Positions 5,201 to 60,005 of a stretch of DNA of 64,000 bases are shown here, piece after piece. Both the position numbers and the translations under genes were made by a program. The stretch comes from Thermoanaerobaculia bacterium (GTDB taxonomy: Bacteria > Acidobacteriota > Thermoanaerobaculia > Gp7-AA8), in assembly GCA_035248585.1 (NCBI GenBank), contig DATFHJ010000107.1:2523-66522 (forward strand), written 5' to 3'. The notes beneath the pieces are model-generated. The model was not told the origin of the DNA. It did no database searches and was given only the letters and a program-made list of their open reading frames with translations. The first letter of the stretch is position 1, and every line of letters begins with the position of its first letter.

Positions 5201-6043
5201 GAAGCGGAAGCCGTCGCGGTCGACACGCGCCGCGTCGCCGCGGTCACGACGCCGAAACGCATTCTCGTCGTCGACGACACGGCCGTGAATCGCGCGGTGC
5301 TCACGCAACTGCTCGCGCTCGTCGGATTCGAAGTGCGCGAGGCGGCGAACGGGGAAGAAGCGATCGAGCTGTGGCGCACGTGGAAGCCGCACCTCATCTG
5401 GATGGACTGGCGGATGAGCGGCATGGACGGCCTCGAAGCGACGCGCCGCATCCGCGCGGAAGAGAAAGGCGCGCGCACGCCGATCATCGCCCTTTCCGCG
5501 AGCGCGCTCGATCACGAGCGCGGCGAGATTCTCGCCGCCGGCTGCGACGAGTTCGTGGCGAAGCCGTTCCGGGAAGCGACGATCTTCGCCACGCTGCGAA
5601 AGTATCTTGGGGTGGAGTACGTGTACGAGGACAATGGAGCGGCGGGCTTTAGCCCGCCGGATACCGACGGCGGGCTAAAGCCCGCCGCTCCAGCCAACGT
5701 TCTCCTCGTCGATGACGACTGGATCTGCCGCGAAGTGGCCACGGAGATCCTGCGCGGGAGCGGCGTCGGCGTGACCGCCGCGTCGAGCGGCGGCGAGGCG
5801 CTGGAGCTGCTCGACCGCACGCGGTTCGACCTCGTGCTCATGGATCTGCAGATGCCGAAGATGAGCGGGGTGGAGGCGGCGCGGCGGATCAAGTCGAATC
5901 CCGCAAATGCCCGCGTGCCGATCATCGCCATGAGCGCCGACACGCTCGACGGGCTCGCGGAGACGGGCATGGACGACTACCTGCTCAAGCCGGTGGAGCC
6001 GGACGCGCTGCTGGCGAAAGTGCGGCGCTGGCTCGGCGCATAG
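2219..6043 (+). CDS. Hybrid sensor histidine kinase: periplasmic beta-propeller/Y_Y_Y-type sensor, TM, HisKA, HATPase_c and two receiver domains
   Basis: An N-terminal signal/TM is followed by repeated LWIGT/IWAGG/VWFG propeller blades and a TM (LAMLALLALVVYAIVLL). H-box is FLANMSHELRTPLN, G-boxes are DTGPGI and GTGLGLAL, and the two REC domains carry ILVVDD...WMDWRMSGMDG and LLVDDD...LMDLQMPKMSG. Confidence 0.9.
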   Translation: MPVRRPLFALCVVLAALAMRAEEWTPTRAFRTFPKSSWRGLPQSSAVALAQSTDGTLWIGTLDGVATFDGKTITPVADVKGAPLRGLITSMVARAQGGVWVASQAGVHRYDGQTWSLLTTERGVASIAEARDGTLWMSDGDGALWTLASNDTWTRRNEMTAKVVALNAAKDGAIWAATETGAARIFNRTTQFVEGAPLPSRPGAILAASDGRVWVATQSCTVHWSKGGADGWHQAEFAPWPRGSFRTLAEDRRGRIWAGSTGARVAFGTASGPWTVWSPVNGPFDPGVMAILGDREGNVWFGLNGVGPAQWVGEGWSHRVAADPWNPARSPFATFSAFGLAPASNGDLLAGLFINGALRLNRDGTQRLFDLQDGLTEDVRALAEIEPGVYAAAARFGIFESRGGKPFTQVLKIGSGFMMGLFRSPAGVWYGASATEGVFVRENGAWRREEAISGNLENQHVRAMMWRRNGELWVATLRGISIFRDGAFVDRATSRNEPAIPESVNALLEVSDDEVWAGGPGGIAIRRGEKWTRVTDGLPGQTIYSLARARDGAIWAGGSEGVGRFANGRWTTWDSRSGLLQEETNLNGLLVDDGGIVYVGTMSGLARFDPSVQSLSQPKLVLQWRDTPAVNDRALHLRWSAPWLSPTPVEYRVRVPRLREEWSKPSPDDRLDIENLGKGRWRVEVEARVEGTNEWTPALVADLDVAPYWYETWPARLAMLALLALVVYAIVLLRSRALRRHAAMLEATVRERTAELAESEQRAHAASRAKSAFLANMSHELRTPLNGVLGFAQLLGRRKNRDAEDRHGLDVIIRSGEHLLGLINDVLSLSKIEAGSMTLEETRFDPRGPVRDVEKLLRFRAEEKHIRFTVDVDESQLPPIVLGDEVRLRQILLNLAGNAVKFTETGGVTLRARWSHGRASFDVEDTGPGIAAAELSKLFEPFVQSETGRRSKEGTGLGLALSRNIARLMGGDITAESTPGRGSKFHVDISLPAAEAEAVAVDTRRVAAVTTPKRILVVDDTAVNRAVLTQLLALVGFEVREAANGEEAIELWRTWKPHLIWMDWRMSGMDGLEATRRIRAEEKGARTPIIALSASALDHERGEILAAGCDEFVAKPFREATIFATLRKYLGVEYVYEDNGAAGFSPPDTDGGLKPAAPANVLLVDDDWICREVATEILRGSGVGVTAASSGGEALELLDRTRFDLVLMDLQMPKMSGVEAARRIKSNPANARVPIIAMSADTLDGLAETGMDDYLLKPVEPDALLAKVRRWLGA
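5636..5692. repeat. Double-hairpin palindromic element, family A (GGAGC-GGCGGGCTTTAGCCCGCC-N10-GGCGGGCTAAAGCCCGCC-GCTCC), in frame inside the hybrid kinase CDS
   Basis: The same element recurs in intergenic DNA at 31926-31981 and 56681-56733. Here it encodes the 19-aa linker GAAGFSPPDTDGGLKPAAP between the two REC domains. Confidence 0.85.
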
Positions 6044-31925: not shown

Positions 31926-31981
31926 GGAGCGGCGGGCTTTAGCCCGCCGAGGGGAAACGGCGGGCTGAAGCCCGCCGCTCC
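31926..31981. repeat. Family A double-hairpin palindromic element, intergenic copy
   Basis: GGAGCGGCGGGCTTTAGCCCGCC-GAGGGGAAAC-GGCGGGCTGAAGCCCGCCGCTCC. It differs from the other copies only in the loops and spacer. Confidence 0.85.
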
Positions 31982-53322: not shown

Positions 53323-53492
53323 GCTTCACCTCAATGTTATTTGGCGATATGGGTTATACGCATATTACAGATAATTATTTGAATGTACAGCTGGCAGTAA
53401 TGGAAGATTTATGAAGTTCCACCATCCGGTTGCGCCGCGTGCAAAGCGGGAGTAGCGTTCGAGCCATCTTTGAAACGTCTGCGGAGGTCACC

Positions 53493-56400
53493 ATGAAACG
53501 GCAATGGCTGTTCTGGGCTGTGATCCTTCTCCTCTCGCTCCCCGTACTCGCGCAGTCGATCCCCACGTCCACGATCAGCGGCAAAGTCACGGCGGACGGC
53601 AACCCCCTGCCCGGCGTCACCGTCAGCGCGAGCTCCCCGAATCTGCAGGGGATACGCACCGCGGTAACGAGCGAGGCCGGCGACTATCTGATCCCGCTGC
53701 TCCCGCCGGGGAGCTACACGATCCAGTACGAGCTCGCCGGCATGCAGACGATGACGAAGAAACCGGTGCTCGCCGCCGGCCTCACGGAGCGTATCGACGT
53801 CGACTTGCGTCCCGCGGCGGTGGCGGAAGCCATCACCGTCACGGCGGACTCGCCGATGACCGCGGCCGTCGAGTCGACGCAGGTGAGCACGAACTTCAAC
53901 CAGGAGCTGATCGAGCAGCTGCCGGTGGCGCGCACGCTGGCGGGGATCACGCTCCTCGCACCGGGCGTGAACAGCAACGGGCCGGGCAACAACATCATCA
54001 TCTCCGGCGCGATGTCGTTCGACAGCCTCTATCTCGTCAACGGCGTGATCGTGAACGAGAACCTCCGCGGGCAGCCGCACAACCTCTTCATCGAAGACGC
54101 GATCCAGGAGACGACGGTGCTGACCGGCGGCATCTCCGCGGAGTTCGGCCACTTCACCGGCGGCGTGGTCAACACGTTGACGAAATCGGGCGGCAACCAG
54201 TTCAGCGGCAGCCTCCGCTCCACGCTGAACAACGAGGAGTGGGTGGCGAAGACGCCGCTCACGACCGACCAGGCCGACAAGATCAACTCCGTCTACGAAG
54301 GAACCCTCGGCGGGCCGGTCTTCCGCGACCGGCTCTGGTTCTTCGGCGCGGGCCGTCTCGCCGAGACCTCCGACATCCGCCAGACGGTTCTCGGCCTCTC
54401 CCGGCAGGGCGACCAGGACGCGAACGGCGTGCAGATCCCGATCGGCGCGCAGCTCGCGCCCGTCACCTATCCGCACGGCACCGACGAAACGCGGCTCGAA
54501 GGAAAGATCACCGGCTCGCTGACCGCGAAGCACACCGTCATCGGCTCGTTCCTCGACGTCGACGCGAGCGAGACGAATCAGACCGGCCAGGTGATCATGG
54601 ACCTCGACAGTCTCGTGGAAGAGCGCGAGACGCCGAACTCGCTCTTCGCGCTGAACTACAACGGCGTCTTCACCGACCGCTTCTTCGTCGAGGCGCAGTA
54701 TTCGAAGAAGGACTTCAAATTCGTCGGCAGCGGCTCGCCGTTCTACGACAACATCAAGGGCACGCTCATCACCGACCGCGCCCGCGCGACGCGCTACTGG
54801 TCGCCGACGTTCCGGGCCACGCCGGAAGGCGAAGAGCGCGACATCCGCGTCTACACCGCGAAGGGCACGTACTTTCTCTCCACGCCGCGCTTCGGCAGTC
54901 ACGAGGTGGCGGCCGGCTACGAGGACTTCAACGAAGTGCGCGCGGTGAACAACTATCAGAACGGCAGCGACTACCGCATCAGCGTGGCCAGCACGATCGT
55001 CCGCAACGGCGTGATCTATCCGCGCATGCCGGGCGGCACGGGCGGCCTGACGCGCATCAGCTGGCTCCCGATCTTCGTGCTCAGCGAGGGCTCCGACTAC
55101 ACCACGCGCTCCGTCTATCTGAACGACCGCTGGACGCTGAACAATCACTGGTCGTTCAACGCCGGCGTGCGCTACGACAAGAACGACACGATCAGCGGCG
55201 CCGGCACGTTCCAGATCGCCGATGACTCGTCGATCAACCCGCGTCTCGCCGCGCACTACGACCTCTTCGCGAACGGGAAGATCATCTTCAACGCCAGCTA
55301 CGGCACGTATGTCGGACGCCTCTCCGAGGGCGCGGCCAACGACGCCGATCCCGCGGGCCGCAACGCGTCGCTGCAGTGGAACTACATGGGGCCGAACATC
55401 AACAACGACGTGAATGCGCCGACCAGCTCCCTGATCGGAACGGAGGAGGCGATCCGCCGGGTGATGGACTGGTTCTTCCAGAACGGCGGCACCGGCCGCC
55501 GCCCGTTCCGTACCACGCCGAGCGTTCCGGGCGTGGAGAGCATTCTCGACGTCGACGGGCTGAAGTCGCCGATGGTGAAGGAGTACACGATCGGCGTCGG
55601 CAGCGCGATGGGCTCGCGCGGCTACGCCCGCGCCGACGTGATCTACCGCAACTGGGACAACTTCTATACGTCGTTCCGCGACCTGGCCACGGGCCAGGTC
55701 ACCGACACGCGGTTCGGCACCGGCGCGACGTACGACCTCTCGATCATCCGCAGCGACAGCGAGATCTACGACCGCGAGTACACGGCGGTGCAGACGCAGT
55801 TCAACTACCGGCTGCTCGAGCGTCTGCGCGTCGGCGGCACGTACACGTGGTCGCGCCTCGTCGGCAACGTCACCGGCGAAGACACGGGCAGCGGCCCGCT
55901 CGTCGGCATCGCCGGCGAATATCCGGAGTATCGCCGCGAGAGCTGGAACTATCCGACCGGATATCTGACCGGCGATCAGCGCCATCGCCTGCGGCTGTGG
56001 GCCGGCTACGACGTGCCGACCTCGTTCGGCGCATTCAACATCTCGCTGCTCCAGCACTTCGACTCCGGCACGCGCACGTCGATCGACGCCGACATCGACT
56101 CGCGTCCATACGTGACGAATCCCGGATACCTCACGCCGCCCGGCACGGTGACGTACTTTTTCGGCGGACGCGGGGCGATCAAGGCGGGCAACATCACCCG
56201 CACGGATCTGGCGATCAACTACAAGCTCGGCCTCGTGCGCGGCATCGAGCTGTTCATCCAGCCCGAGGTGATCAATCTCTTCAACGAGCAGGGCGTGCAG
56301 ACGTTCAACGAAGAAGTGCTGACCGCGGTCGACTGCGCGCCGCAGACCACCGGCAACCTCGCCGCGCCGTGTCCGGCGAAAGGCCTGCAGCCGTTCAACC

Positions 56401-56525
56401 CGTTCACCGAGAAGCCGGTGGAAGGCGTGAACTACATCAAGGGTCCGAACTTCGGGAAGGCTGACAGCGAAGCGGACTATCAAACGCCGAGGACGTTCCG
56501 CGTCTCGGTGGGACTGCGGTTCTGA
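53493..56525 (+). CDS. TonB-dependent receptor with an N-terminal carboxypeptidase-regulatory-like (CarboxypepD_reg) domain
   Basis: GGAGG lies upstream of the ATG at 53493, with signal peptide MKRQWLFWAVILLLSLPVLAQS. This is followed by ISGKVTADGNPLPGVTVSASSP...GDYLIPLLPPGSYTI, a plug region, and a barrel ending TPRTFRVSVGLRF. Confidence 0.9.
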   Translation: MKRQWLFWAVILLLSLPVLAQSIPTSTISGKVTADGNPLPGVTVSASSPNLQGIRTAVTSEAGDYLIPLLPPGSYTIQYELAGMQTMTKKPVLAAGLTERIDVDLRPAAVAEAITVTADSPMTAAVESTQVSTNFNQELIEQLPVARTLAGITLLAPGVNSNGPGNNIIISGAMSFDSLYLVNGVIVNENLRGQPHNLFIEDAIQETTVLTGGISAEFGHFTGGVVNTLTKSGGNQFSGSLRSTLNNEEWVAKTPLTTDQADKINSVYEGTLGGPVFRDRLWFFGAGRLAETSDIRQTVLGLSRQGDQDANGVQIPIGAQLAPVTYPHGTDETRLEGKITGSLTAKHTVIGSFLDVDASETNQTGQVIMDLDSLVEERETPNSLFALNYNGVFTDRFFVEAQYSKKDFKFVGSGSPFYDNIKGTLITDRARATRYWSPTFRATPEGEERDIRVYTAKGTYFLSTPRFGSHEVAAGYEDFNEVRAVNNYQNGSDYRISVASTIVRNGVIYPRMPGGTGGLTRISWLPIFVLSEGSDYTTRSVYLNDRWTLNNHWSFNAGVRYDKNDTISGAGTFQIADDSSINPRLAAHYDLFANGKIIFNASYGTYVGRLSEGAANDADPAGRNASLQWNYMGPNINNDVNAPTSSLIGTEEAIRRVMDWFFQNGGTGRRPFRTTPSVPGVESILDVDGLKSPMVKEYTIGVGSAMGSRGYARADVIYRNWDNFYTSFRDLATGQVTDTRFGTGATYDLSIIRSDSEIYDREYTAVQTQFNYRLLERLRVGGTYTWSRLVGNVTGEDTGSGPLVGIAGEYPEYRRESWNYPTGYLTGDQRHRLRLWAGYDVPTSFGAFNISLLQHFDSGTRTSIDADIDSRPYVTNPGYLTPPGTVTYFFGGRGAIKAGNITRTDLAINYKLGLVRGIELFIQPEVINLFNEQGVQTFNEEVLTAVDCAPQTTGNLAAPCPAKGLQPFNPFTEKPVEGVNYIKGPNFGKADSEADYQTPRTFRVSVGLRF

Positions 56526-56551
56526 GGCGAGGTGTTATACTCCGCGGGCTT

Positions 56552-56617
56552 ATGAACCGAACGACGGGCACCGGACAGACGCGAACGACGAGCACCACGC
56601 TCGCGCCCTGTCGATGA
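56552..56617 (+). promoter_or_regulatory. Candidate thrS leader peptide ORF, MNRTTGTGQTRTTSTTLAPCR (8 Thr codons in 21)
   Basis: ATG at 56552 and TGA at 56615-56617. Its 3' end contains GCCCTGTC (56605-56612), identical to the 3' arm of the downstream terminator and complementary to its 5' arm. Confidence 0.45.
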
Positions 56618-56649
56618 TCGTCTACTGAGACAGTCAGAAAGATCAACGA

Positions 56650-56678
56650 GACAGGGCTTCGGCCCTGTCTTTTGTTTT
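56650..56678 (+). terminator. Intrinsic terminator/attenuator hairpin upstream of thrS
   Basis: GACAGGGC-TTCG-GCCCTGTC is followed by TTTTGTTTT. Confidence 0.7.
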
Positions 56679-56680
56679 AT

Positions 56681-56733
56681 GGAGCGGCGGGCTTCAGCCC
56701 GCCGGATGCCGGCGGGCTAAAGCCCGCCGCTCC
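56681..56733. repeat. Family A double-hairpin palindromic element, intergenic copy directly upstream of thrS
   Basis: GGAGCGGCGGGCTTCAGCCCGCC-GGATGCC-GGCGGGCTAAAGCCCGCCGCTCC. Confidence 0.85.
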
Positions 56734-56756
56734 ACACAAGCGATGCGAGGTTTCTC

Positions 56757-58670
56757 ATGAACGTGCAACTGCCCGATGGCTCCGTAAAAGAAATCGCCGA
56801 GAACGCGACCGTCGCCGACGTCGCGGCGTCGATCGGCAAGCGGCTGGCGAAAGATGCGATTGCCGGCAAAGTGAACGGCAAGGTGGTCGACGTCTACGCG
56901 CCCGTTCCCGACGGCGCGAAGATCGAGATCGTCACTGCGAAGACCGAGGCCGGGCTCGACACCATCCGCCACTCCACCGCCCACCTCATGGCCATGGCGG
57001 TCCAGGAGCTGTTTCCCGGAACCCAGGTCACCATCGGCCCGGTGATCGAGAACGGCTTCTTCTACGACTTCGGCACCGATCGTCCGTTCACCGACGAAGA
57101 CCTGCGCCGCATCGAGGAGAAGATGGCTGAGATCGTGAAGCGCGACCTTCCAGTCCGGCGCGAGGAGTGGAGCCGCGACGAAGCGATCAAGCTCTTCGAC
57201 CAGCTCGGCGAAAAGTACAAGGTGGAGATCATCCAGGCCATCCCCGGCGATGAAAAGCTGTCCGTCTATCGCCAGGGCGAGTGGTTCGATCTCTGCCGCG
57301 GGCCGCACGTCCCCTCCACCGGCCGCCTCGGCGCGTTCAAGCTCCTCTCCGTCGCCGGCGCGTACTGGCGCGGCGACGAGCGCAATGCCATGCTGCAGCG
57401 CATCTACGGCACCGCCTGGGCCGACAAGGAGCAGCTCGACGCGCATCTCCAGCAGCTCGAGCAGGCCAGGGCCCGCGATCACCGCAAGCTCGGCAAGGAG
57501 CTGGGGCTGTTCATGTTCAGCCACTTCGCGCCGTCGATGCCGATCTTCCTGCCGCGCGGCACCGTGATCTACAACGAGCTGATCGACTTCGTGCGCGAGA
57601 AATACCGGCGCGATGGATACACCGAGGTCATCGCGCCGATCATCTTCGACACCGAGCTGTTCAAGATCTCGGGCCACTACGACAACTACCGCGACAACAT
57701 GTTCTTCTCGGAGATCGAGGAGCGCGAGTACGGCGTGAAGCCGATGAACTGCCCCGGCCACACCCAGGTCTTCGCGCTGGAGCGGCGCTCGTATCGCGAT
57801 CTGCCGATCCGCCTCGCGGAGTTCACCCGTCTGCACCGCTACGAGCGCTCGGGCGTGACTCACGGACTCGTGCGCGTGCGCTCGTTCGCGCAGGATGACG
57901 CGCATCTCTTCGTGACTCCGGAGCAGATCGAGGAGGAGATCGACCGCGAGCTGCGGCTGATCAGCGAGATCTACGACACCTTCGGATTCAGCGACGTGCG
58001 CATCGCACTGTCGACCCGTCCGGAAAAGCGCATCGGCAACGACGAGCTGTGGGACAACGCCGAGTCGGCGCTGGAGAACGCGCTGAAGAAGAACAATCTC
58101 GAGTACCACATCAATCCGGGCGAGGGCGCGTTCTACGGGCCGAAGCTCGAGTTCCAGGTGCACGATGCGATCGGCCGACCGTGGCAGCTCGGCACCGTGC
58201 AACTCGACTACACCCTCCCCGAGCGCTTCCAGCTCGAGTACATCGGCGCGGACAATCACCCGCACCGGCCGGTGATGATCCACCGCGCGATCCTCGGCTC
58301 GCTCGAGCGGTTCATCGGCATCATCATCGAGCACTTCGCCGGCGCGTTCCCGTTCTGGCTCGCGCCCGTGCAGATGCGCGTCCTCCCGCTGTCCGAGAAG
58401 TTCACCGACTACGCCGCACAGGTCGCGGAGAAGCTGAAAGCCGCGAACCTGCGCGTCGAAGTCGACCAGAGCAACGAGAAGCTCGGCGCGAAGATCCGTG
58501 ACGCGCAGCTGCAGAAGGTGCCGTTCATGCTCGTGGTGGGCGAGAAAGAAGCCGCCGCCGGAACCGTGACTCTCCGCAAACGCAGCGGCGGCGACCAGCC
58601 GACTCTGAGCGTCGAGGATGTGATCGCGATGGCGCAGGAGCTGGCGCGCACGCGCGCGCTAACGCTTTAG
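56757..58670 (+). CDS. thrS: Threonine--tRNA ligase
   Basis: TGS domain (MNVQLPDGSVKE...), editing-domain HSTAHLMA, class II motifs (FRGE-type RLHRYERSGVTHGLVRVRSF; GEGAFYGPK) and a C-terminal anticodon-binding domain. Confidence 0.95.
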   Translation: MNVQLPDGSVKEIAENATVADVAASIGKRLAKDAIAGKVNGKVVDVYAPVPDGAKIEIVTAKTEAGLDTIRHSTAHLMAMAVQELFPGTQVTIGPVIENGFFYDFGTDRPFTDEDLRRIEEKMAEIVKRDLPVRREEWSRDEAIKLFDQLGEKYKVEIIQAIPGDEKLSVYRQGEWFDLCRGPHVPSTGRLGAFKLLSVAGAYWRGDERNAMLQRIYGTAWADKEQLDAHLQQLEQARARDHRKLGKELGLFMFSHFAPSMPIFLPRGTVIYNELIDFVREKYRRDGYTEVIAPIIFDTELFKISGHYDNYRDNMFFSEIEEREYGVKPMNCPGHTQVFALERRSYRDLPIRLAEFTRLHRYERSGVTHGLVRVRSFAQDDAHLFVTPEQIEEEIDRELRLISEIYDTFGFSDVRIALSTRPEKRIGNDELWDNAESALENALKKNNLEYHINPGEGAFYGPKLEFQVHDAIGRPWQLGTVQLDYTLPERFQLEYIGADNHPHRPVMIHRAILGSLERFIGIIIEHFAGAFPFWLAPVQMRVLPLSEKFTDYAAQVAEKLKAANLRVEVDQSNEKLGAKIRDAQLQKVPFMLVVGEKEAAAGTVTLRKRSGGDQPTLSVEDVIAMAQELARTRALTL

Positions 58671-60005
58671 CACCACCCGCTCGCCGGCTGCGTTCTCGAG
58701 GACGTAGCCGGCGTCCGTTTTTCGCGCCGTGATCACGCTGTCGGTCGCGGGATCGTAGCTCGCGTAGGTTCCGTTGCCCGTGGGACGGAACCGGCGCATG
58801 GCCGACGGCGGGACGCCTTTCGCAACGGCCAGCACCTTCGTGCCGTCGGTGATGACGCGCTGGATCGTGTCGCCGGTGCGGACGAAGGTCTGGAGGTTGC
58901 GCGCGCTGCTCGGATGGCGCGTCGTGCCGAGGATCTCGAACGGCTCGCTCATCTGCTGCTTGACCAGCGTTTCGGCGTTCGCCGCGGCCGCGCGCTGTTC
59001 GGGCGTGAGCGACCAGAGAAGCGAGAGCGCTTGCTGGGAGTCGCCGATGGGCAGCACGTCCTTGCCGCGAACGACCGGCGGCGGCAGGACGTACGGCTGG
59101 CGCGCGAGGATGCGCTCGACGTTCTTCTCGATCGGCAGGTGCCAGCCGGTATTGCGATTGATGAGATAGATCAACACCGCGTCGTGCTCGCGGTAGTACG
59201 CGAGCATGCTGATGAAGCTCGCGCGTACGAGGCCGCCGCGATAGATCTTGTTCGGTGGAGTATTCCAGCCGTATCGCTGAAGCTCGGGATGCTTGGTCAG
59301 CCACCGCCACCAGCGCTCGAGGTCCGCGGCCGTGGTGAGAATCCCGGCCGCGCCGAACGTGTACTTGCCGCCCCACATCGGCGCGTTCGGGCCGTTGCGC
59401 ACGAGCGGCTCCGCGGGCTCGAGCTCCTCGTCGGAGTTGCCGGTGAATGCGGCGGCGATCGCTTCGCCCGGCAGCGCGGGCTCGGTCCAGAAGCGGCTCT
59501 CGCGCATGCCCGCGGGCTCGAGGAGATGCGCGCGCGCGTACCCGGCGAACGGCTGTCCGCTCGCGCGCTCGACGATGCCGAGGAGCAGACCGTAGCCGAA
59601 ATTCGAGTACGAATAGCGCTCGCCCGGCGCGGCGACGAGCTTCGCCTTTGCCGCGGCATCAAACAAGTCATCGGTGGAATTCGGCGGATCGAGCGGCAGA
59701 CCGGAGGTGTGCGTGAGCAGTTGATGGATCGTGATCGGGCCGGCCACGGTGTCGGACGTACGAAGGCGTCCCTGTGCTTCGAGCTGCAGGATCGCCGCGG
59801 CGACGAACGTTTTCATGATCGAGCCGGCGTCGTAGCGCTGGTGGACCGTCGCGCGGCCGAAGGCGTCGTGCGTCAGGACCCGGCCGTGCTTCGACACGAG
59901 CGCGACTCCGTCGAAGCCGTACATCGCGTAGCGGGAGAGGAGAGTGTGGGTTTCGGAAGAAGCGCAGCCGGTGAGCAGAAACAGCGTGAGAACGAGGGAA
60001 CGCAA
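58659..60005 (-). CDS. Serine hydrolase of the beta-lactamase/PBP (class C-like) family, lipoprotein
   Basis: The TTG at 60005 is preceded by GGAGG. It has a lipobox LFLLTGC, an SxxK motif (GSIMKTF) and a YSN motif (YSYSNFGY). Confidence 0.8.
   Translation of the reverse strand: MRSLVLTLFLLTGCASSETHTLLSRYAMYGFDGVALVSKHGRVLTHDAFGRATVHQRYDAGSIMKTFVAAAILQLEAQGRLRTSDTVAGPITIHQLLTHTSGLPLDPPNSTDDLFDAAAKAKLVAAPGERYSYSNFGYGLLLGIVERASGQPFAGYARAHLLEPAGMRESRFWTEPALPGEAIAAAFTGNSDEELEPAEPLVRNGPNAPMWGGKYTFGAAGILTTAADLERWWRWLTKHPELQRYGWNTPPNKIYRGGLVRASFISMLAYYREHDAVLIYLINRNTGWHLPIEKNVERILARQPYVLPPPVVRGKDVLPIGDSQQALSLLWSLTPEQRAAAANAETLVKQQMSEPFEILGTTRHPSSARNLQTFVRTGDTIQRVITDGTKVLAVAKGVPPSAMRRFRPTGNGTYASYDPATDSVITARKTDAGYVLENAAGERVVLKR

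What the first reader, a model, noticed from the sequence alone, without database searches (positions are those of the whole stretch)
56526..56756. Threonine-codon-rich leader ORF with terminator and alternative hairpin upstream of thrS: candidate attenuation control of a tRNA synthetase
A 21-codon ORF lies between the receptor stop (56525) and thrS (56757). It encodes MNRTTGTGQTRTTSTTLAPCR, with 8 Thr codons (ACG x6, ACC x2). Its last codons contain GCCCTGTC (56605-56612). The same octamer forms the 3' arm of an intrinsic terminator (GACAGGGC-TTCG-GCCCTGTC-TTTTGTTTT, 56650-56678). The terminator's 5' arm can therefore pair either with the leader-ORF copy (antiterminator) or with the 3' arm (terminator). 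A ribosome reaching the stop codon at 56615 would mask the upstream copy. A ribosome stalled at the Thr codons would leave it free. This is the classic leader-peptide attenuation geometry and is logically appropriate, since low Thr-tRNA would raise ThrRS. Comparable control is known for pheST (pheM leader) in E. coli, but thrS is classically controlled by an operator (E. coli) or a T-box (Bacillus). Only 23 nt separate the following family A palindrome from the thrS ATG, so thrS transcripts probably start upstream of the terminator. A TATACT hexamer at 56536-56541 could be a -10 element that gives a near-leaderless leader ORF.
Basis: partly seen in the sequence, partly recalled or inferred. 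Interest (0 to 1): 0.7.

Follow-up and report, generated by a model that had tools for sequence, protein, structure and literature searches.

The report
Threonine-sensing leader attenuator before thrS
A short threonine-rich mini-gene, followed by two mutually exclusive RNA hairpins (a stop signal for transcription and its competitor), sits in front of the threonyl-tRNA synthetase gene and is conserved in about 20 related soil Acidobacteriota, so it is very likely a classical "leader-peptide" switch that makes more of the enzyme when charged threonine-tRNA runs low.

Summary

- **Conservation.** Upstream of thrS in 20 further Thermoanaerobaculia loci (ThrRS 64-83% identical) the same module recurs. 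It has a TATACT -10 element, an ATG 8-21 nt later, and a 19-24-codon ORF (11 in one degenerate case), M-x-R-T-T-T-T-x-Q-T-R-T-T-...-P-C-R-stop. GCCCUGUCG overlaps the last codons, and CGACAGGGCC...GGCCCUGU plus a U-run lies 10-25 nt before the thrS start.
- **Ownership.** The upstream neighbour differs between genomes and is usually divergent, so the terminator belongs to thrS.
- **Translation.** Every spacing inside the ORF is a multiple of 3 (21/21). Flanking spacers are not.
- **Structures.** It forms with probability about 1 before the terminator's 3' arm exists.

No Rfam family matches, and I found no description in the held literature. It is a new member of a known kind (leader-peptide attenuation, as at pheST). 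There is no experimental proof. One close relative lacks the ORF but keeps the terminator. A second Thr-leader family (MTPRTT...) precedes thrS in Burkholderiales.

The parts
56533..56541 (+). Extended -10-like promoter element TGtTATACT for the leader transcript. The inferred transcription start is about 56548-56550, which gives a (near-)leaderless leader ORF.
   Evidence: The T, A and final T of the hexamer are invariant across 21 aligned leaders. The gap from the hexamer to the ATG is 8-17 nt in 20 of 21. No -35 was found, and the two-hexamer scan reports nothing. The transcription start is not mapped.
56552..56617 (+). Leader ORF (thrL-like): 21 codons plus TGA, MNRTTGTGQTRTTSTTLAPCR*.
   Evidence: Homologous ORFs occur in 20 related loci. 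All inter-anchor distances inside the ORF are multiples of 3, whereas flanking spacers are not. It is the only such ORF in the window.
56561..56572 (+). First Thr-codon cluster (ACG ACG GGC ACC).
   Evidence: The aligned columns are Thr in 11-16 of 20 leaders. Variation is mainly at third positions (ACG/ACC/ACT/ACA), which is a coding signature.
56579..56590 (+). Near-invariant block ACG CGA ACG ACG (Thr-Arg-Thr-Thr). This is the proposed main stalling site.
   Evidence: ACG is present in 18-20 of 21 leaders at the three Thr codons and CGA in 18 of 21. The last Thr codon lies 11-23 nt (mode 17) upstream of the antiterminator 5' strand. No consistent pairing partner was found.
56589..56603 (+). 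Small hairpin P1 (CGAGC-ACCAC-GCTCG) between the Thr block and the antiterminator. It is a possible RNA polymerase pause hairpin.
   Evidence: It scores -9.2 kcal/mol with z = -2.7 here. It is strong in the window's subclade (L010-13, L081, L086: -9 to -14 kcal/mol) and weak or absent in 5 relatives. The pausing role is inferred.
56605..56619 (+). Antiterminator 5' strand: GCCCTGTC (last codons of the ORF), then ga, then TGATC (the stop codon TGA plus 2 nt).
   Evidence: The CCCTG core is invariant in 21 sequences. The stop codon begins exactly 10 nt after the start of this strand in 20 of 21.
56641..56657 (+). Antiterminator 3' strand: GATCA, then acga, then GACAGGGC. The last 8 nt are also the 5' arm of the terminator.
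   Evidence: The hairpin 56605-56657 scores -25.3 kcal/mol with z = -5.5. The inner part is more stable than shuffles in 21 of 21 leaders. The seg2:seg3 pairing probability is 1.00 before the terminator 3' arm is made.
56648..56671 (+). Intrinsic terminator stem-loop GAGACAGGGC-TTCG-GCCCTGTCTT.
   Evidence: 10 pairs, 6 G-C. It scores -18.6 kcal/mol. It is the RNAalifold consensus of the 21 leaders. 91% of cells are paired, and 3 pairs have changes on both sides.
56670..56678 (+). U-tract of the terminator (TTTTGTTTT).
   Evidence: A T-rich run follows the stem in all 21 leaders.
56681..56733 (.). REP-like double palindrome (2 x GGCGGGCTnnAGCCCGCC inside GGAGCGGC...GCCGCTCC). It is a lineage-specific insertion between the attenuator and the thrS ribosome-binding site and is not part of the conserved module.
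   Evidence: Three such pairs occur in the window, against 0.01 expected. Most relatives lack it, and unrelated palindromes occupy the same spot in L004/5, L009/12 and L084.
56747..56750 (+). Shine-Dalgarno sequence GAGG of thrS.
   Evidence: Read directly from the sequence. It lies 6 nt before the ATG.
56757..58670 (+). thrS (threonyl-tRNA synthetase, 637 aa), the regulated gene. It is monocistronic here.
   Evidence: Pfam finds TGS, tRNA_SAD, tRNA-synt_2b and HGTP_anticodon domains. Homologues align from residue 1. The next gene is convergent.

Best explanation
This is a ribosome-mediated (leader-peptide) transcription attenuator that sets thrS expression according to the supply of charged tRNA-Thr.

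**Start of the transcript.** Transcription starts a few bases after the TGtTATACT -10 element. The 5'-proximal ATG (56552) is translated at once, on a mRNA with little or no leader (inferred).

**The RNA switch.** The last codons and the stop codon of the 21-codon ORF form the 5' strand of a long antiterminator hairpin (56605-56657). Its 3' strand contains the 5' arm of an intrinsic terminator (56648-56671, followed by a U-run). The two structures therefore exclude each other.

**When Thr-tRNA is plentiful.** The ribosome runs to the UGA stop and covers GCCCUGUC/UGAUC while RNA polymerase makes the next ~55 nt. The terminator then forms and thrS is not transcribed.

**When Thr-tRNA is scarce.** The ribosome stalls on the Thr codons, above all the conserved ACG-CGA-ACG-ACG block. 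That block ends 17 nt before the antiterminator strand, just beyond a ribosome's leading edge. The strand stays free and pairs with GACAGGGC, the terminator cannot form, and polymerase reads into thrS.

**What is shown and what is inferred.** Shown: the anatomy, its conservation, the reading-frame constraint and the mutually exclusive folds. Inferred: the transcription start, translation of the ORF, the ribosome footprint geometry, a pausing role for hairpin P1, and the response to Thr-tRNA.
For: **Anatomy.** The window anatomy was verified.

**Conservation in relatives.** 20 related Thermoanaerobaculia loci carry the same module directly upstream of thrS.

**Linkage to thrS.** The upstream neighbour varies: TonB-dependent receptor, Tle1-like protein, methyltransferase, HEAT-repeat protein, M4 peptidase. 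It is mostly divergent, so the terminator cannot belong to it.

**No room for a second promoter.** Where no palindrome is inserted, the thrS ATG follows the U-run within about 10-25 nt.

**Evidence for translation.**
- ATG-to-RTT and RTT-to-CCCTG distances are multiples of 3 in 21 of 21, with 6-7 different lengths each.
- Non-coding spacers split 9/6/6 and 8/7/6 over the three residue classes.
- Third codon positions are the most variable in the first Thr cluster.
- Thr makes up 20-47% of the residues in 20 of 21 leaders, against 7.4% of codons in the window's genes.

**Antiterminator.**
- It scores -16 to -25.6 kcal/mol in all 21 leaders, with z from -2.9 to -8.
- Its variable inner part is more stable than shuffles in 21 of 21, with mean z -2.4.
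- That inner part uses different sequences in different lineages: UGAUC:GAUCA, UGAAU:AUUCA, AUG:CAU, GUUCG:CGAAC.
- Its core pairs with probability about 1 in 18 of 21 before the terminator 3' arm exists.

**Compensating changes.** In L086, UGC in strand 2, GCAGGGC in strand 3 and GCCCUGC in strand 4 change together. In L087 a G-C pair becomes A-U.

**Geometry.** The stop codon begins 10 nt after the start of strand 2 in 20 of 21. The last conserved Thr codon lies 11-23 nt before it.

**Precedent.** Known or predicted cases include pheST, Streptomyces trpS and leuS, and a weak thrL-thrS candidate in S. lividans.
Against: - No transcript ends, ribosome profiling or reporter data exist for this organism.
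- The leader ORF has no Shine-Dalgarno sequence, and its translation depends on an unmapped start site.
- The closest relative (L001) keeps the -10-like element and the terminator but lacks the ORF and the antiterminator strand. A constitutive terminator in front of an essential gene is hard to reconcile with this model, unless the terminator is leaky or the assembly is wrong.
- L084 has only one Thr codon.
- Compensatory covariation in the core helices is sparse because they are sequence-conserved. Shuffle controls are only marginal: 33/500 and 13/500 for pairs changed on both sides.
- A TGC Cys codon breaks one antiterminator pair without compensation in L004, L005, L010 and L011.
- No consistent 1:2 anti-antiterminator exists, so tight coupling of ribosome and polymerase is required. 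The candidate pause hairpin is weak or absent in 5 relatives.
- The nucleotide-level invariance of ACG-CGA-ACG-ACG is not explained by coding alone.
- In the window the co-directional receptor gene has no terminator of its own, so the hairpin may also serve that gene.
Confidence: 0.8

Rival explanations
1. The same terminator/antiterminator switch is operated by something other than a translating ribosome. A protein (for example ThrRS itself), a tRNA or a small ligand would bind the conserved RNA block, and the ORF would be incidental.
For: ACGCGAACGACG is almost invariant at the nucleotide level, including third positions. It uses CGA, which makes up only 9% of Arg codons. There is no Shine-Dalgarno sequence before the ORF. 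E. coli thrS and Bacillus thrS are both controlled by direct RNA binding (established knowledge).
Against: Reading-frame-preserving indels occur in 21 of 21 leaders, whereas flanking spacers have no such periodicity. The ATG and an in-frame stop are conserved in every leader, and the first Thr cluster varies synonymously. There is no T-box or any other Rfam match, even at E <= 10 or at gathering score in relatives. The invariant block has no conserved pairing partner or structure. No anticodon-like loop is conserved.
Confidence: 0.07
2. The element is a translation-coupled attenuator that reports general translation capacity (ribosome availability or speed, rare CGA codons) rather than Thr-tRNA specifically.
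For: Naked RNA defaults to the antiterminator, so any failure of a ribosome to reach the stop codon gives read-through. There are three rare CGA codons per leader. L084 retains the switch with only one Thr codon.
Against: Thr is the only residue consistently present in runs: 20-47% of the residues in 20 of 21 leaders. It sits at the right distance from the antiterminator strand. The regulated gene is the Thr-specific synthetase. Independent Thr-rich leaders occur at thrS in Burkholderiales.
Confidence: 0.08
3. This is an ordinary terminator of the upstream TonB-dependent receptor gene plus a chance ORF, and thrS has its own promoter downstream.
For: In the window the receptor gene (53430-56525, + strand) ends 123 nt before the hairpin and has no other terminator. 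The closest relative L001 has the terminator without the ORF.
Against: The module stays with thrS in relatives whose upstream gene is different and divergently transcribed. Only about 10-25 nt separate the U-run from the thrS ATG where no palindrome is inserted. The chance expectation for such an ORF is 0.01 per window. No promoter-like site lies between 56678 and 56757.
Confidence: 0.02

Closest known systems
E. coli pheST attenuator (pheM leader peptide)
   Same: A short leader ORF rich in the cognate amino acid's codons sits in front of an aminoacyl-tRNA synthetase gene. An intrinsic terminator with a competing antiterminator follows. Low charged tRNA gives read-through and more synthetase (established knowledge; cited as the precedent in PMC1262725).
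   Different: It senses Phe rather than Thr. The classical version has four segments with a 1:2 hairpin and a Shine-Dalgarno-led ORF. Here there is no consistent 1:2 structure, the ORF is probably leaderless, the antiterminator's 5' strand overlaps the stop codon, and the phylum is Acidobacteriota.
thr operon leader (thrL, Rfam RF00506) of Gammaproteobacteria
   Same: A run of Thr codons in a 21-residue leader peptide senses Thr-tRNA and controls a terminator.
   Different: thrL also carries Ile codons and controls the biosynthetic thrABC operon, not the synthetase. There is no covariance-model match to the window, even at E <= 10, and no sequence relationship.
Streptomyces leader peptides upstream of aaRS genes: trpS and leuS attenuators, and the 'thrL'-thrS candidate of S. 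lividans
   Same: Leaderless short ORFs lie directly upstream of synthetase genes, including thrS, and were proposed as attenuators (PMC1262725; PMC8079986).
   Different: The S. lividans thrL (MKRVRPFLETTPGFVPAR) has only two Thr codons and no clear Rho-independent terminator. The present element has 4-9 Thr codons in 20 of 21 leaders, a canonical terminator, a strong antiterminator, and conservation across 21 sequences.
Bacillus subtilis thrS T-box leader
   Same: Same gene, same signal (uncharged versus charged tRNA-Thr), and same output: antitermination at an intrinsic terminator in the 5' leader.
   Different: The T-box binds the tRNA directly and needs no translation. No T-box match was found here, and there is no specifier-loop or T-box sequence.
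E. coli thrS translational operator
   Same: Autogenous, homeostatic control of the same gene through its 5' leader.
   Different: In E. coli, ThrRS binds tRNA-like hairpins next to the ribosome-binding site and blocks translation. Here control is at transcription termination. In relatives only 10-25 nt separate the terminator from the ATG, which leaves no room for such an operator.

Membership tests
Ribosome-mediated (leader-peptide) transcription attenuators | A short ORF with start and in-frame stop in the 5' leader of the regulated gene. | tested here: met
   ORF 56552-56617. An equivalent ORF is present in 20 relatives.
Ribosome-mediated (leader-peptide) transcription attenuators | Tandem or clustered codons for the amino acid related to the regulated gene. 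| tested here: met
   8 Thr codons in 21. Thr makes up 20-47% of the residues in 20 of 21 leaders, against 7.4% of codons in the window's genes.
Ribosome-mediated (leader-peptide) transcription attenuators | An intrinsic terminator between the leader ORF and the structural gene. | tested here: met
   A 10-bp GC-rich stem with a UUCG loop and UUUUGUUUU. It is the consensus structure of the 21 leaders.
Ribosome-mediated (leader-peptide) transcription attenuators | An antiterminator that shares a strand with the terminator, so the two are mutually exclusive. | tested here: met
   The hairpin 56605-56657 uses 56650-56657, the terminator's 5' arm. It scores -25.3 against -18.6 kcal/mol. The equivalent hairpin is present in 21 of 21 leaders.
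Ribosome-mediated (leader-peptide) transcription attenuators | Geometry: a ribosome at the stop codon masks the antiterminator strand, and a ribosome stalled at the regulatory codons leaves it free. | tested here: met
   The stop codon starts 10 nt after the strand start in 20 of 21. The last conserved Thr codon lies 11-23 nt (mode 17) upstream. Ribosome footprint sizes are taken from established knowledge, so this step is an inference.
Ribosome-mediated (leader-peptide) transcription attenuators | The ORF is actually translated (evolutionary signature). | tested here: met
   Indels preserve the frame in 21 of 21 leaders, and flanking spacers do not. The first Thr cluster shows a third-position excess of variation. 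This is indirect evidence. There are no ribosome-profiling data.
Ribosome-mediated (leader-peptide) transcription attenuators | A 1:2 hairpin (anti-antiterminator or pause hairpin), as in the trp, his and phe leaders. | tested here: inconclusive
   No consistent 1:2 pairing was found. The small hairpin P1 is strong only in the window's subclade.
Ribosome-mediated (leader-peptide) transcription attenuators | A promoter upstream of the leader and none between the terminator and the gene. | tested here: inconclusive
   A conserved TAnnnT -10 element lies 8-17 nt before the ATG. There is no space for a promoter downstream in relatives. The two-hexamer promoter scan finds nothing anywhere in the region. 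The transcription start is not mapped.
Ribosome-mediated (leader-peptide) transcription attenuators | Read-through responds to charging of the cognate tRNA. | not testable with these tools
   This needs reporter fusions, Term-seq, or in vitro coupled transcription-translation.
Rfam Thr_leader (RF00506) | A match to the family covariance model. | tested here: not met
   No hit in 55500-58000 at E <= 10. No hit in relatives at gathering score.
T-box leaders (RF00230) | A match to the covariance model, with specifier loop and T-box sequence. | tested here: not met
   No hit at E <= 10 in the window or at gathering score in L002, L010, L012, L015.
E. coli-type thrS translational operator | tRNA-Thr anticodon-arm-like hairpins flanking the thrS ribosome-binding site, bound by ThrRS. 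| tested here: not met
   In relatives only 10-25 nt lie between the U-run and the ATG. In the window the intervening hairpin is a repeated REP-like element also found at 5641 and 31931. ThrRS binding itself is not testable here.

The most novel reading that the evidence does not exclude
Thr-codon leader attenuators at thrS may form a widespread, uncatalogued class rather than a single-clade curiosity.

Among 160 thrS loci I found the Thermoanaerobaculia family, a large Burkholderiales family (MTPRTT..., 25 loci) and at least two smaller ones. All are built around the same Arg-Thr-Thr core, mostly CGA-ACN-ACN. Some Polaromonas leaders even share the 12-mer CGCGAACGACGA with the window.

The near-invariance of ACG-CGA-ACG-ACG, with its rare CGA codon, would then reflect a codon-specific stalling device. 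One possibility is slow I:A decoding of CGA, which would sensitise the ribosome to the following Thr codons. Another is selective sensing of the tRNA-Thr(CGU) isoacceptor. Either would be more than a plain run of Thr codons.
Probability: 0.25. Interest if true: 0.6.

Novelty: new member of a known kind. Interest (0 to 1): 0.5.

Why it matters
**A third route to the same control.** thrS is the textbook example of two other control modes: the ThrRS-binding translational operator in E. coli and the T-box in Bacillus. This element shows a third, well-conserved solution for the same gene. Leader-peptide attenuation senses the enzyme's own product, Thr-tRNA, through the ribosome.

**A gap filled in a poorly known phylum.** It gives one of the first functionally interpretable cis-regulatory RNAs in Acidobacteriota. 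[quoted passage not shown]

**Testable in culture.** The parallel MTPRTT leaders in Burkholderiales suggest that this mode of thrS control is more common than catalogues such as Rfam indicate. They also offer cultivable hosts such as Acidovorax and Polaromonas in which it can be tested.

**Practical use.** The module is compact, about 130 nt. It could serve as a Thr-tRNA-responsive genetic part.

Tried and rejected
- **Rfam.** A scan of the region at E <= 10 gave only chance-level hits to the REP-like palindrome. There was no Thr_leader and no T-box. A gathering-score scan of 9 related or Burkholderiales loci found only tRNAs.
- **Promoter scan.** The two-hexamer sigma-70 scan found no promoter anywhere in 55500-58000. 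The promoter assignment therefore rests on the conserved -10 element alone.
- **RNAalifold.** On the MAFFT alignment it recovers only the terminator. The antiterminator had to be shown per sequence.
- **Core covariation.** Compensatory changes are few and the shuffle controls marginal, so covariation alone does not prove the helices.
- **1:2 hairpin.** A search for a classical 1:2 anti-antiterminator found no consistent structure.
- **Partner for the invariant block.** A search for a pairing partner of ACGCGAACGACG found none.
- **Source record.** An exact look-up of the window's ThrRS found nothing on record.
- **Literature.** Seven searches found no description of this element. Vitreschak et al. 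2004 (FEMS Microbiol Lett) is not held, so prior mention of thrS attenuators in Proteobacteria cannot be excluded.
- **Not run.** I did not run the very large protein-database searches. The two contig scans already gave 20 independent leaders.
- **Rejected reading.** I rejected the idea that the hairpin is merely the receptor gene's terminator.
Full report
**1. The observation**

- The ORF 56552-56617 encodes MNRTTGTGQTRTTSTTLAPCR*, with six ACG and two ACC codons.
- GCCCTGTC occurs at 56605-56612, inside the last codons, and again at 56662-56669.
- The terminator stem is 10 bp: GAGACAGGGC-UUCG-GCCCUGUCUU, 56648-56671. It is followed by UUUUGUUUU.
- TATACT lies at 56536-56541 and is preceded by TGt, which gives an extended -10.
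- The palindrome occupies 56681-56733, 23 nt before the thrS ATG at 56757.

These features are more than chance would give. It is the only ATG ORF of 10-40 codons with at least 6 Thr and at least 30% Thr on either strand of the window. The expectation is 0.01 per simulated 64-kb window. The whole leader folds with z = -7.7 relative to shuffles.

**2. Context**

- The gene at 56757-58670 is a complete ThrRS with TGS, SAD, class II core and anticodon-binding domains.
- The upstream gene is a co-directional TonB-dependent receptor.
- The downstream gene is a convergent beta-lactamase-family gene, so thrS is monocistronic.
- ThrRS similarity places the window in Thermoanaerobaculia (Acidobacteriota). 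The best relatives are 83% identical.

**3. Comparative test**

One genome scan and one metagenome scan with ThrRS as the query gave 160 loci.

*How often the module is present.* 23 loci have ThrRS at least 64% identical.
- 20 show the same architecture directly upstream of thrS.
- L001 has lost the ORF.
- L084 keeps the module, but its ORF is cut down to 11 codons with one Thr.
- L085 begins inside thrS and cannot be assessed.

*The shared architecture.*
- A TAnnnT -10 element, mostly TATACT.
- An ATG 8-17 nt later. L015, which has no clear -10, was anchored at 21 nt.
- An ORF of 19-24 codons with the pattern M-x-R-T-T-T-T-x-Q-T-R-T-T-(3-7 residues)-P-C-R-stop.
- GCCCUGUCG overlapping the last codons.
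- 25-42 nt of variable sequence.
- CGACAGGGCC-loop-GGCCCUGU plus a U-run.
- The thrS Shine-Dalgarno sequence and ATG.

*The module belongs to thrS.* The neighbouring upstream gene differs between loci: Tle1-like protein, methyltransferase, HEAT-repeat protein, M4 peptidase, TonB-dependent receptor. In most loci it is transcribed divergently. Where no palindromic element is inserted, the ATG of thrS lies only about 10-25 nt after the U-run. thrS transcription must therefore come through the terminator.

*Where it is absent.* More distant Thermoanaerobaculia (56-57% ThrRS identity, L018-L021) instead have two tRNA-Val genes and a plain terminator upstream.

**4. Is the ORF translated?**

- **Frame.** The distances ATG to R-T-T block and R-T-T block to CCCTG are multiples of three in 21 of 21 sequences, although each takes 6-7 different values. 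The adjacent non-coding spacers (-10 to ATG, and CCCTG to strand 3) spread evenly over the three residue classes: 9/6/6 and 8/7/6.
- **Codon positions.** In the first Thr cluster the third codon position is the most variable (ACG/ACC/ACT/ACA), while positions 1 and 2 keep Thr.
- **Thr content.** Thr makes up 20-47% of the residues in 20 of 21 leaders, against 7.4% of codons in the window's genes.
- **Codon choice.** ACG is the major Thr codon here (60%). CGA (9% of Arg codons) and TGT (14% of Cys codons) are rare codons that the RNA pairing appears to impose.

No Shine-Dalgarno sequence precedes the ORF. With the -10 element 8-17 nt upstream, the mRNA would be leaderless or nearly so. The same is reported for Streptomyces leader peptides (PMC8079986).

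**5. The RNA switch**

In the window, GCCCUGUC:GACAGGGC is extended by UGAUC (stop codon plus 2 nt, 56615-19) pairing with GAUCA (56641-45), plus inner pairs. The total is -25.3 kcal/mol, against -18.6 for the terminator.

*Conservation.*
- An equivalent hairpin of -16 to -25.6 kcal/mol is predicted in all 21 leaders, with z from -2.9 to -8.
- With the conserved core held fixed and only the variable interior shuffled, the native interior is more stable in 21 of 21. Mean z is -2.4, and 16 of 21 fall below -1.64.
- The interior helix uses different sequences in different lineages: UGAUC:GAUCA, UGAAU:AUUCA, AUG:CAU, GUUCG:CGAAC.

*Order of folding.* Before the 3' arm of the terminator is transcribed, the core of strand 2 pairs with strand 3 with probability at least 0.98 in 18 of 21 naked leaders. 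At equilibrium in the full leader the terminator wins in most. This is what a kinetic switch needs.

*Covariation in the cores.* The two core helices are 89% and 91% paired but are sequence-conserved, so compensatory changes are few.
- The clearest case is L086. UGU becomes UGC in strand 2, GACAGGGC becomes GCAGGGC in strand 3, and GCCCUGU becomes GCCCUGC in strand 4, all together.
- In L087 a G-C pair becomes A-U.
- Four leaders carry UGC without compensation.

**6. Geometry and mechanism**

- The stop codon begins exactly 10 nt after the start of strand 2 in 20 of 21 leaders.
- The last Thr codon of the conserved T-R-T-T block lies 11-23 nt (mode 17) before strand 2.
- The terminator stem ends 49-66 nt after the stop codon.

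With standard ribosome footprints (established knowledge), a ribosome at the stop codon covers strand 2 and the UGAUC extension. A ribosome stalled on T-R-T-T leaves them just free. The logic is therefore the classical one:
- Charged tRNA-Thr abundant: the ribosome reaches the stop codon, the terminator forms, and thrS is off.
- Charged tRNA-Thr scarce: the ribosome stalls upstream, the antiterminator forms, and polymerase reads into thrS.

There is one difference from the trp and phe leaders. I found no consistent 1:2 anti-antiterminator, so the untranslated RNA defaults to read-through.

A small hairpin, P1 (56589-56603), overlaps the last conserved Thr codon. It could pause RNA polymerase until the ribosome arrives. 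It is strong in the window's subclade (-9 to -14 kcal/mol, z from -2.6 to -5) but weak or absent in five relatives. Its role is only inferred.

**7. What does not fit**

- **L001.** This is the closest relative and is syntenic with L081 and L011. It has a -10-like TACACT, then 11 nt, then the terminator, with thrS 14 nt further on. The ORF and strand 2 are missing.
- **L084.** It keeps the frame, strand 2 and both hairpins, but its ORF is cut to MRPTSSSPPCR.
- **The invariant block.** ACG-CGA-ACG-ACG is nearly invariant at the nucleotide level yet has no conserved pairing partner. Coding for Thr alone does not explain this.
- **No experimental data.** None exist for this organism.

**8. Rivals**

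- A plain terminator of the receptor gene plus a chance ORF is excluded by the synteny data.
- A non-ribosomal RNA switch (ThrRS, tRNA or a ligand) is disfavoured by the frame constraint and by the absence of any T-box or other Rfam match.
- A general translation-capacity sensor cannot be fully excluded, but it does not explain the Thr runs.

**9. Comparison with what is known**

*Known kind.* Leader-peptide attenuation of synthetase genes is established for E. coli pheST. It has been predicted for Streptomyces trpS and leuS (PMC1262725). An RNA-seq reannotation of S. lividans lists a leaderless 'thrL' before thrS with two Thr codons and no clear terminator (PMC8079986).

*What is new.* I found no description of a Thr-rich leader with a canonical terminator at thrS, nor of any such element in Acidobacteriota, in seven literature searches. 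One key paper is not held. The element does not match Rfam Thr_leader or T-box. It works like the pheST attenuator. It is a new family within that known kind, not a new mechanism.

**10. Noticed on the way**

- Among the same 160 loci, 25 Burkholderiales loci carry an exact ATGACACCGCGAAC 130-190 nt upstream of thrS. These include Acidovorax, Polaromonas, Rhodoferax and Oxalobacteraceae. The ORFs encode MTPRTT(T/S/P)... and are followed by AAGCGCGG...CCGCGCUUUUU.
- In Acidovorax the four classical segments can be read directly: CGCGAAC : GUUCGCG : GCGCGGA : UCCGCGC.
- Two smaller groups (L154/L156, L098) have similar leaders.
- All share an Arg-Thr-Thr core, usually with the rare CGA codon, as does the Thermoanaerobaculia leader.

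**11. Verdict**

- **Observation:** confirmed.
- **Interpretation:** supported by comparative genomics. Confidence is about 0.8 that it is a Thr-tRNA-sensing leader-peptide attenuator of thrS.
- **Novelty:** new member of a known kind.
- **Interest:** 0.5. It is a clean, well-conserved and directly testable regulatory element in a poorly studied phylum. It adds a third control mode for a textbook gene, but it is mechanistically classical.

Noticed in passing
L054:2825, L063:2458, L064:2824, L070:2836, L077:2827, L107:1334 and 19 further loci (list): A second Thr-leader family lies upstream of thrS in Burkholerdiales-type loci (Burkholderiales: Acidovorax, Polaromonas, Rhodoferax, Oxalobacteraceae). 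An exact ATGACACCGCGAAC begins an ORF encoding MTPRTT(T/S/P)... of 11-22 codons, 130-190 nt before thrS. It is followed by the GC-rich hairpin AAGCGCGG..CCGCGC and a U-run. The Acidovorax type shows four classical segments: CGCGAAC, GUUCGCG, GCGCGGA, UCCGCGC. There is no Rfam match at gathering score.
   Followed up: partly
L154:1378-1500, L156:1378-1500, L098:about 1310-1400: Further small thrS leaders are each followed by a terminator: MSTTRT(I/T)LQST (L154/L156) and MRMSFRTTSTDTNLRM (L098). Together with the two large families, all share an Arg-Thr-Thr core, mostly CGA-ACN-ACN. Some Polaromonas leaders share the 12-mer CGCGAACGACGA with the window.
   Followed up: partly
L001:100-165: The closest relative (ThrRS 83% identical) shares its upstream gene with L081 and L011. 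It has a -10-like TACACT, then 11 nt, then the same terminator, with thrS 14 nt later. The whole leader ORF and the antiterminator 5' strand are missing. This is either a natural deletion leaving a constitutive terminator or an assembly artefact.
   Followed up: partly
L084:808-922: The leader ORF is shortened in frame to MRPTSSSPPCR, with a single Thr codon 14 nt before the antiterminator strand. The stop codon, antiterminator and terminator are all intact.
   Followed up: partly
window 56681-56733; L004:about 2905-2985; L005:about 1510-1590; L009:about 2912-2990; L012:about 2885-2990; L084:about 925-1015: Unrelated long palindromic (REP- or MITE-like) elements are inserted at the same spot in different genomes, between the attenuator's U-run and the thrS Shine-Dalgarno sequence. 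The window's element (2 x GGCGGGCTnnAGCCCGCC) also occurs at 5641-5686 and 31931-31976. This looks like an insertion hot spot just downstream of the terminator.
   Followed up: partly
L015:2606-2807; L018:2733-2897; L020:2739-2903; L075:2854-2930; L098:1221-1297; L054:2699-2772: tRNA genes lie directly upstream of thrS in distant lineages. They are tRNA-Val(GAC), or GAC plus CAC, in the five loci typed. The one in L054 is untyped. In L015 the Thr leader follows the tRNA with no recognisable -10 element, which suggests co-transcription.
   Followed up: no
L004:about 2700-2765, L007, L009, L012, L013, L084, L087 (intergenic region between the divergent HEAT-repeat gene and the leader): A conserved arrangement CAT-N5-6-TTAGAC-N17-19-GGTTAGC-(0-13 nt)-TATACT occurs here. 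The motif GGTTAG(A)C is repeated between the start of the divergent gene and the leader's -10 element. It could be a regulator site or a promoter element for a leaderless divergent gene.
   Followed up: no
window 58659-58670: The 3' end of thrS overlaps by 12 nt the 3' end of a convergent beta-lactamase-family ORF (58659-60005, minus strand). No terminator was examined between them.
   Followed up: no
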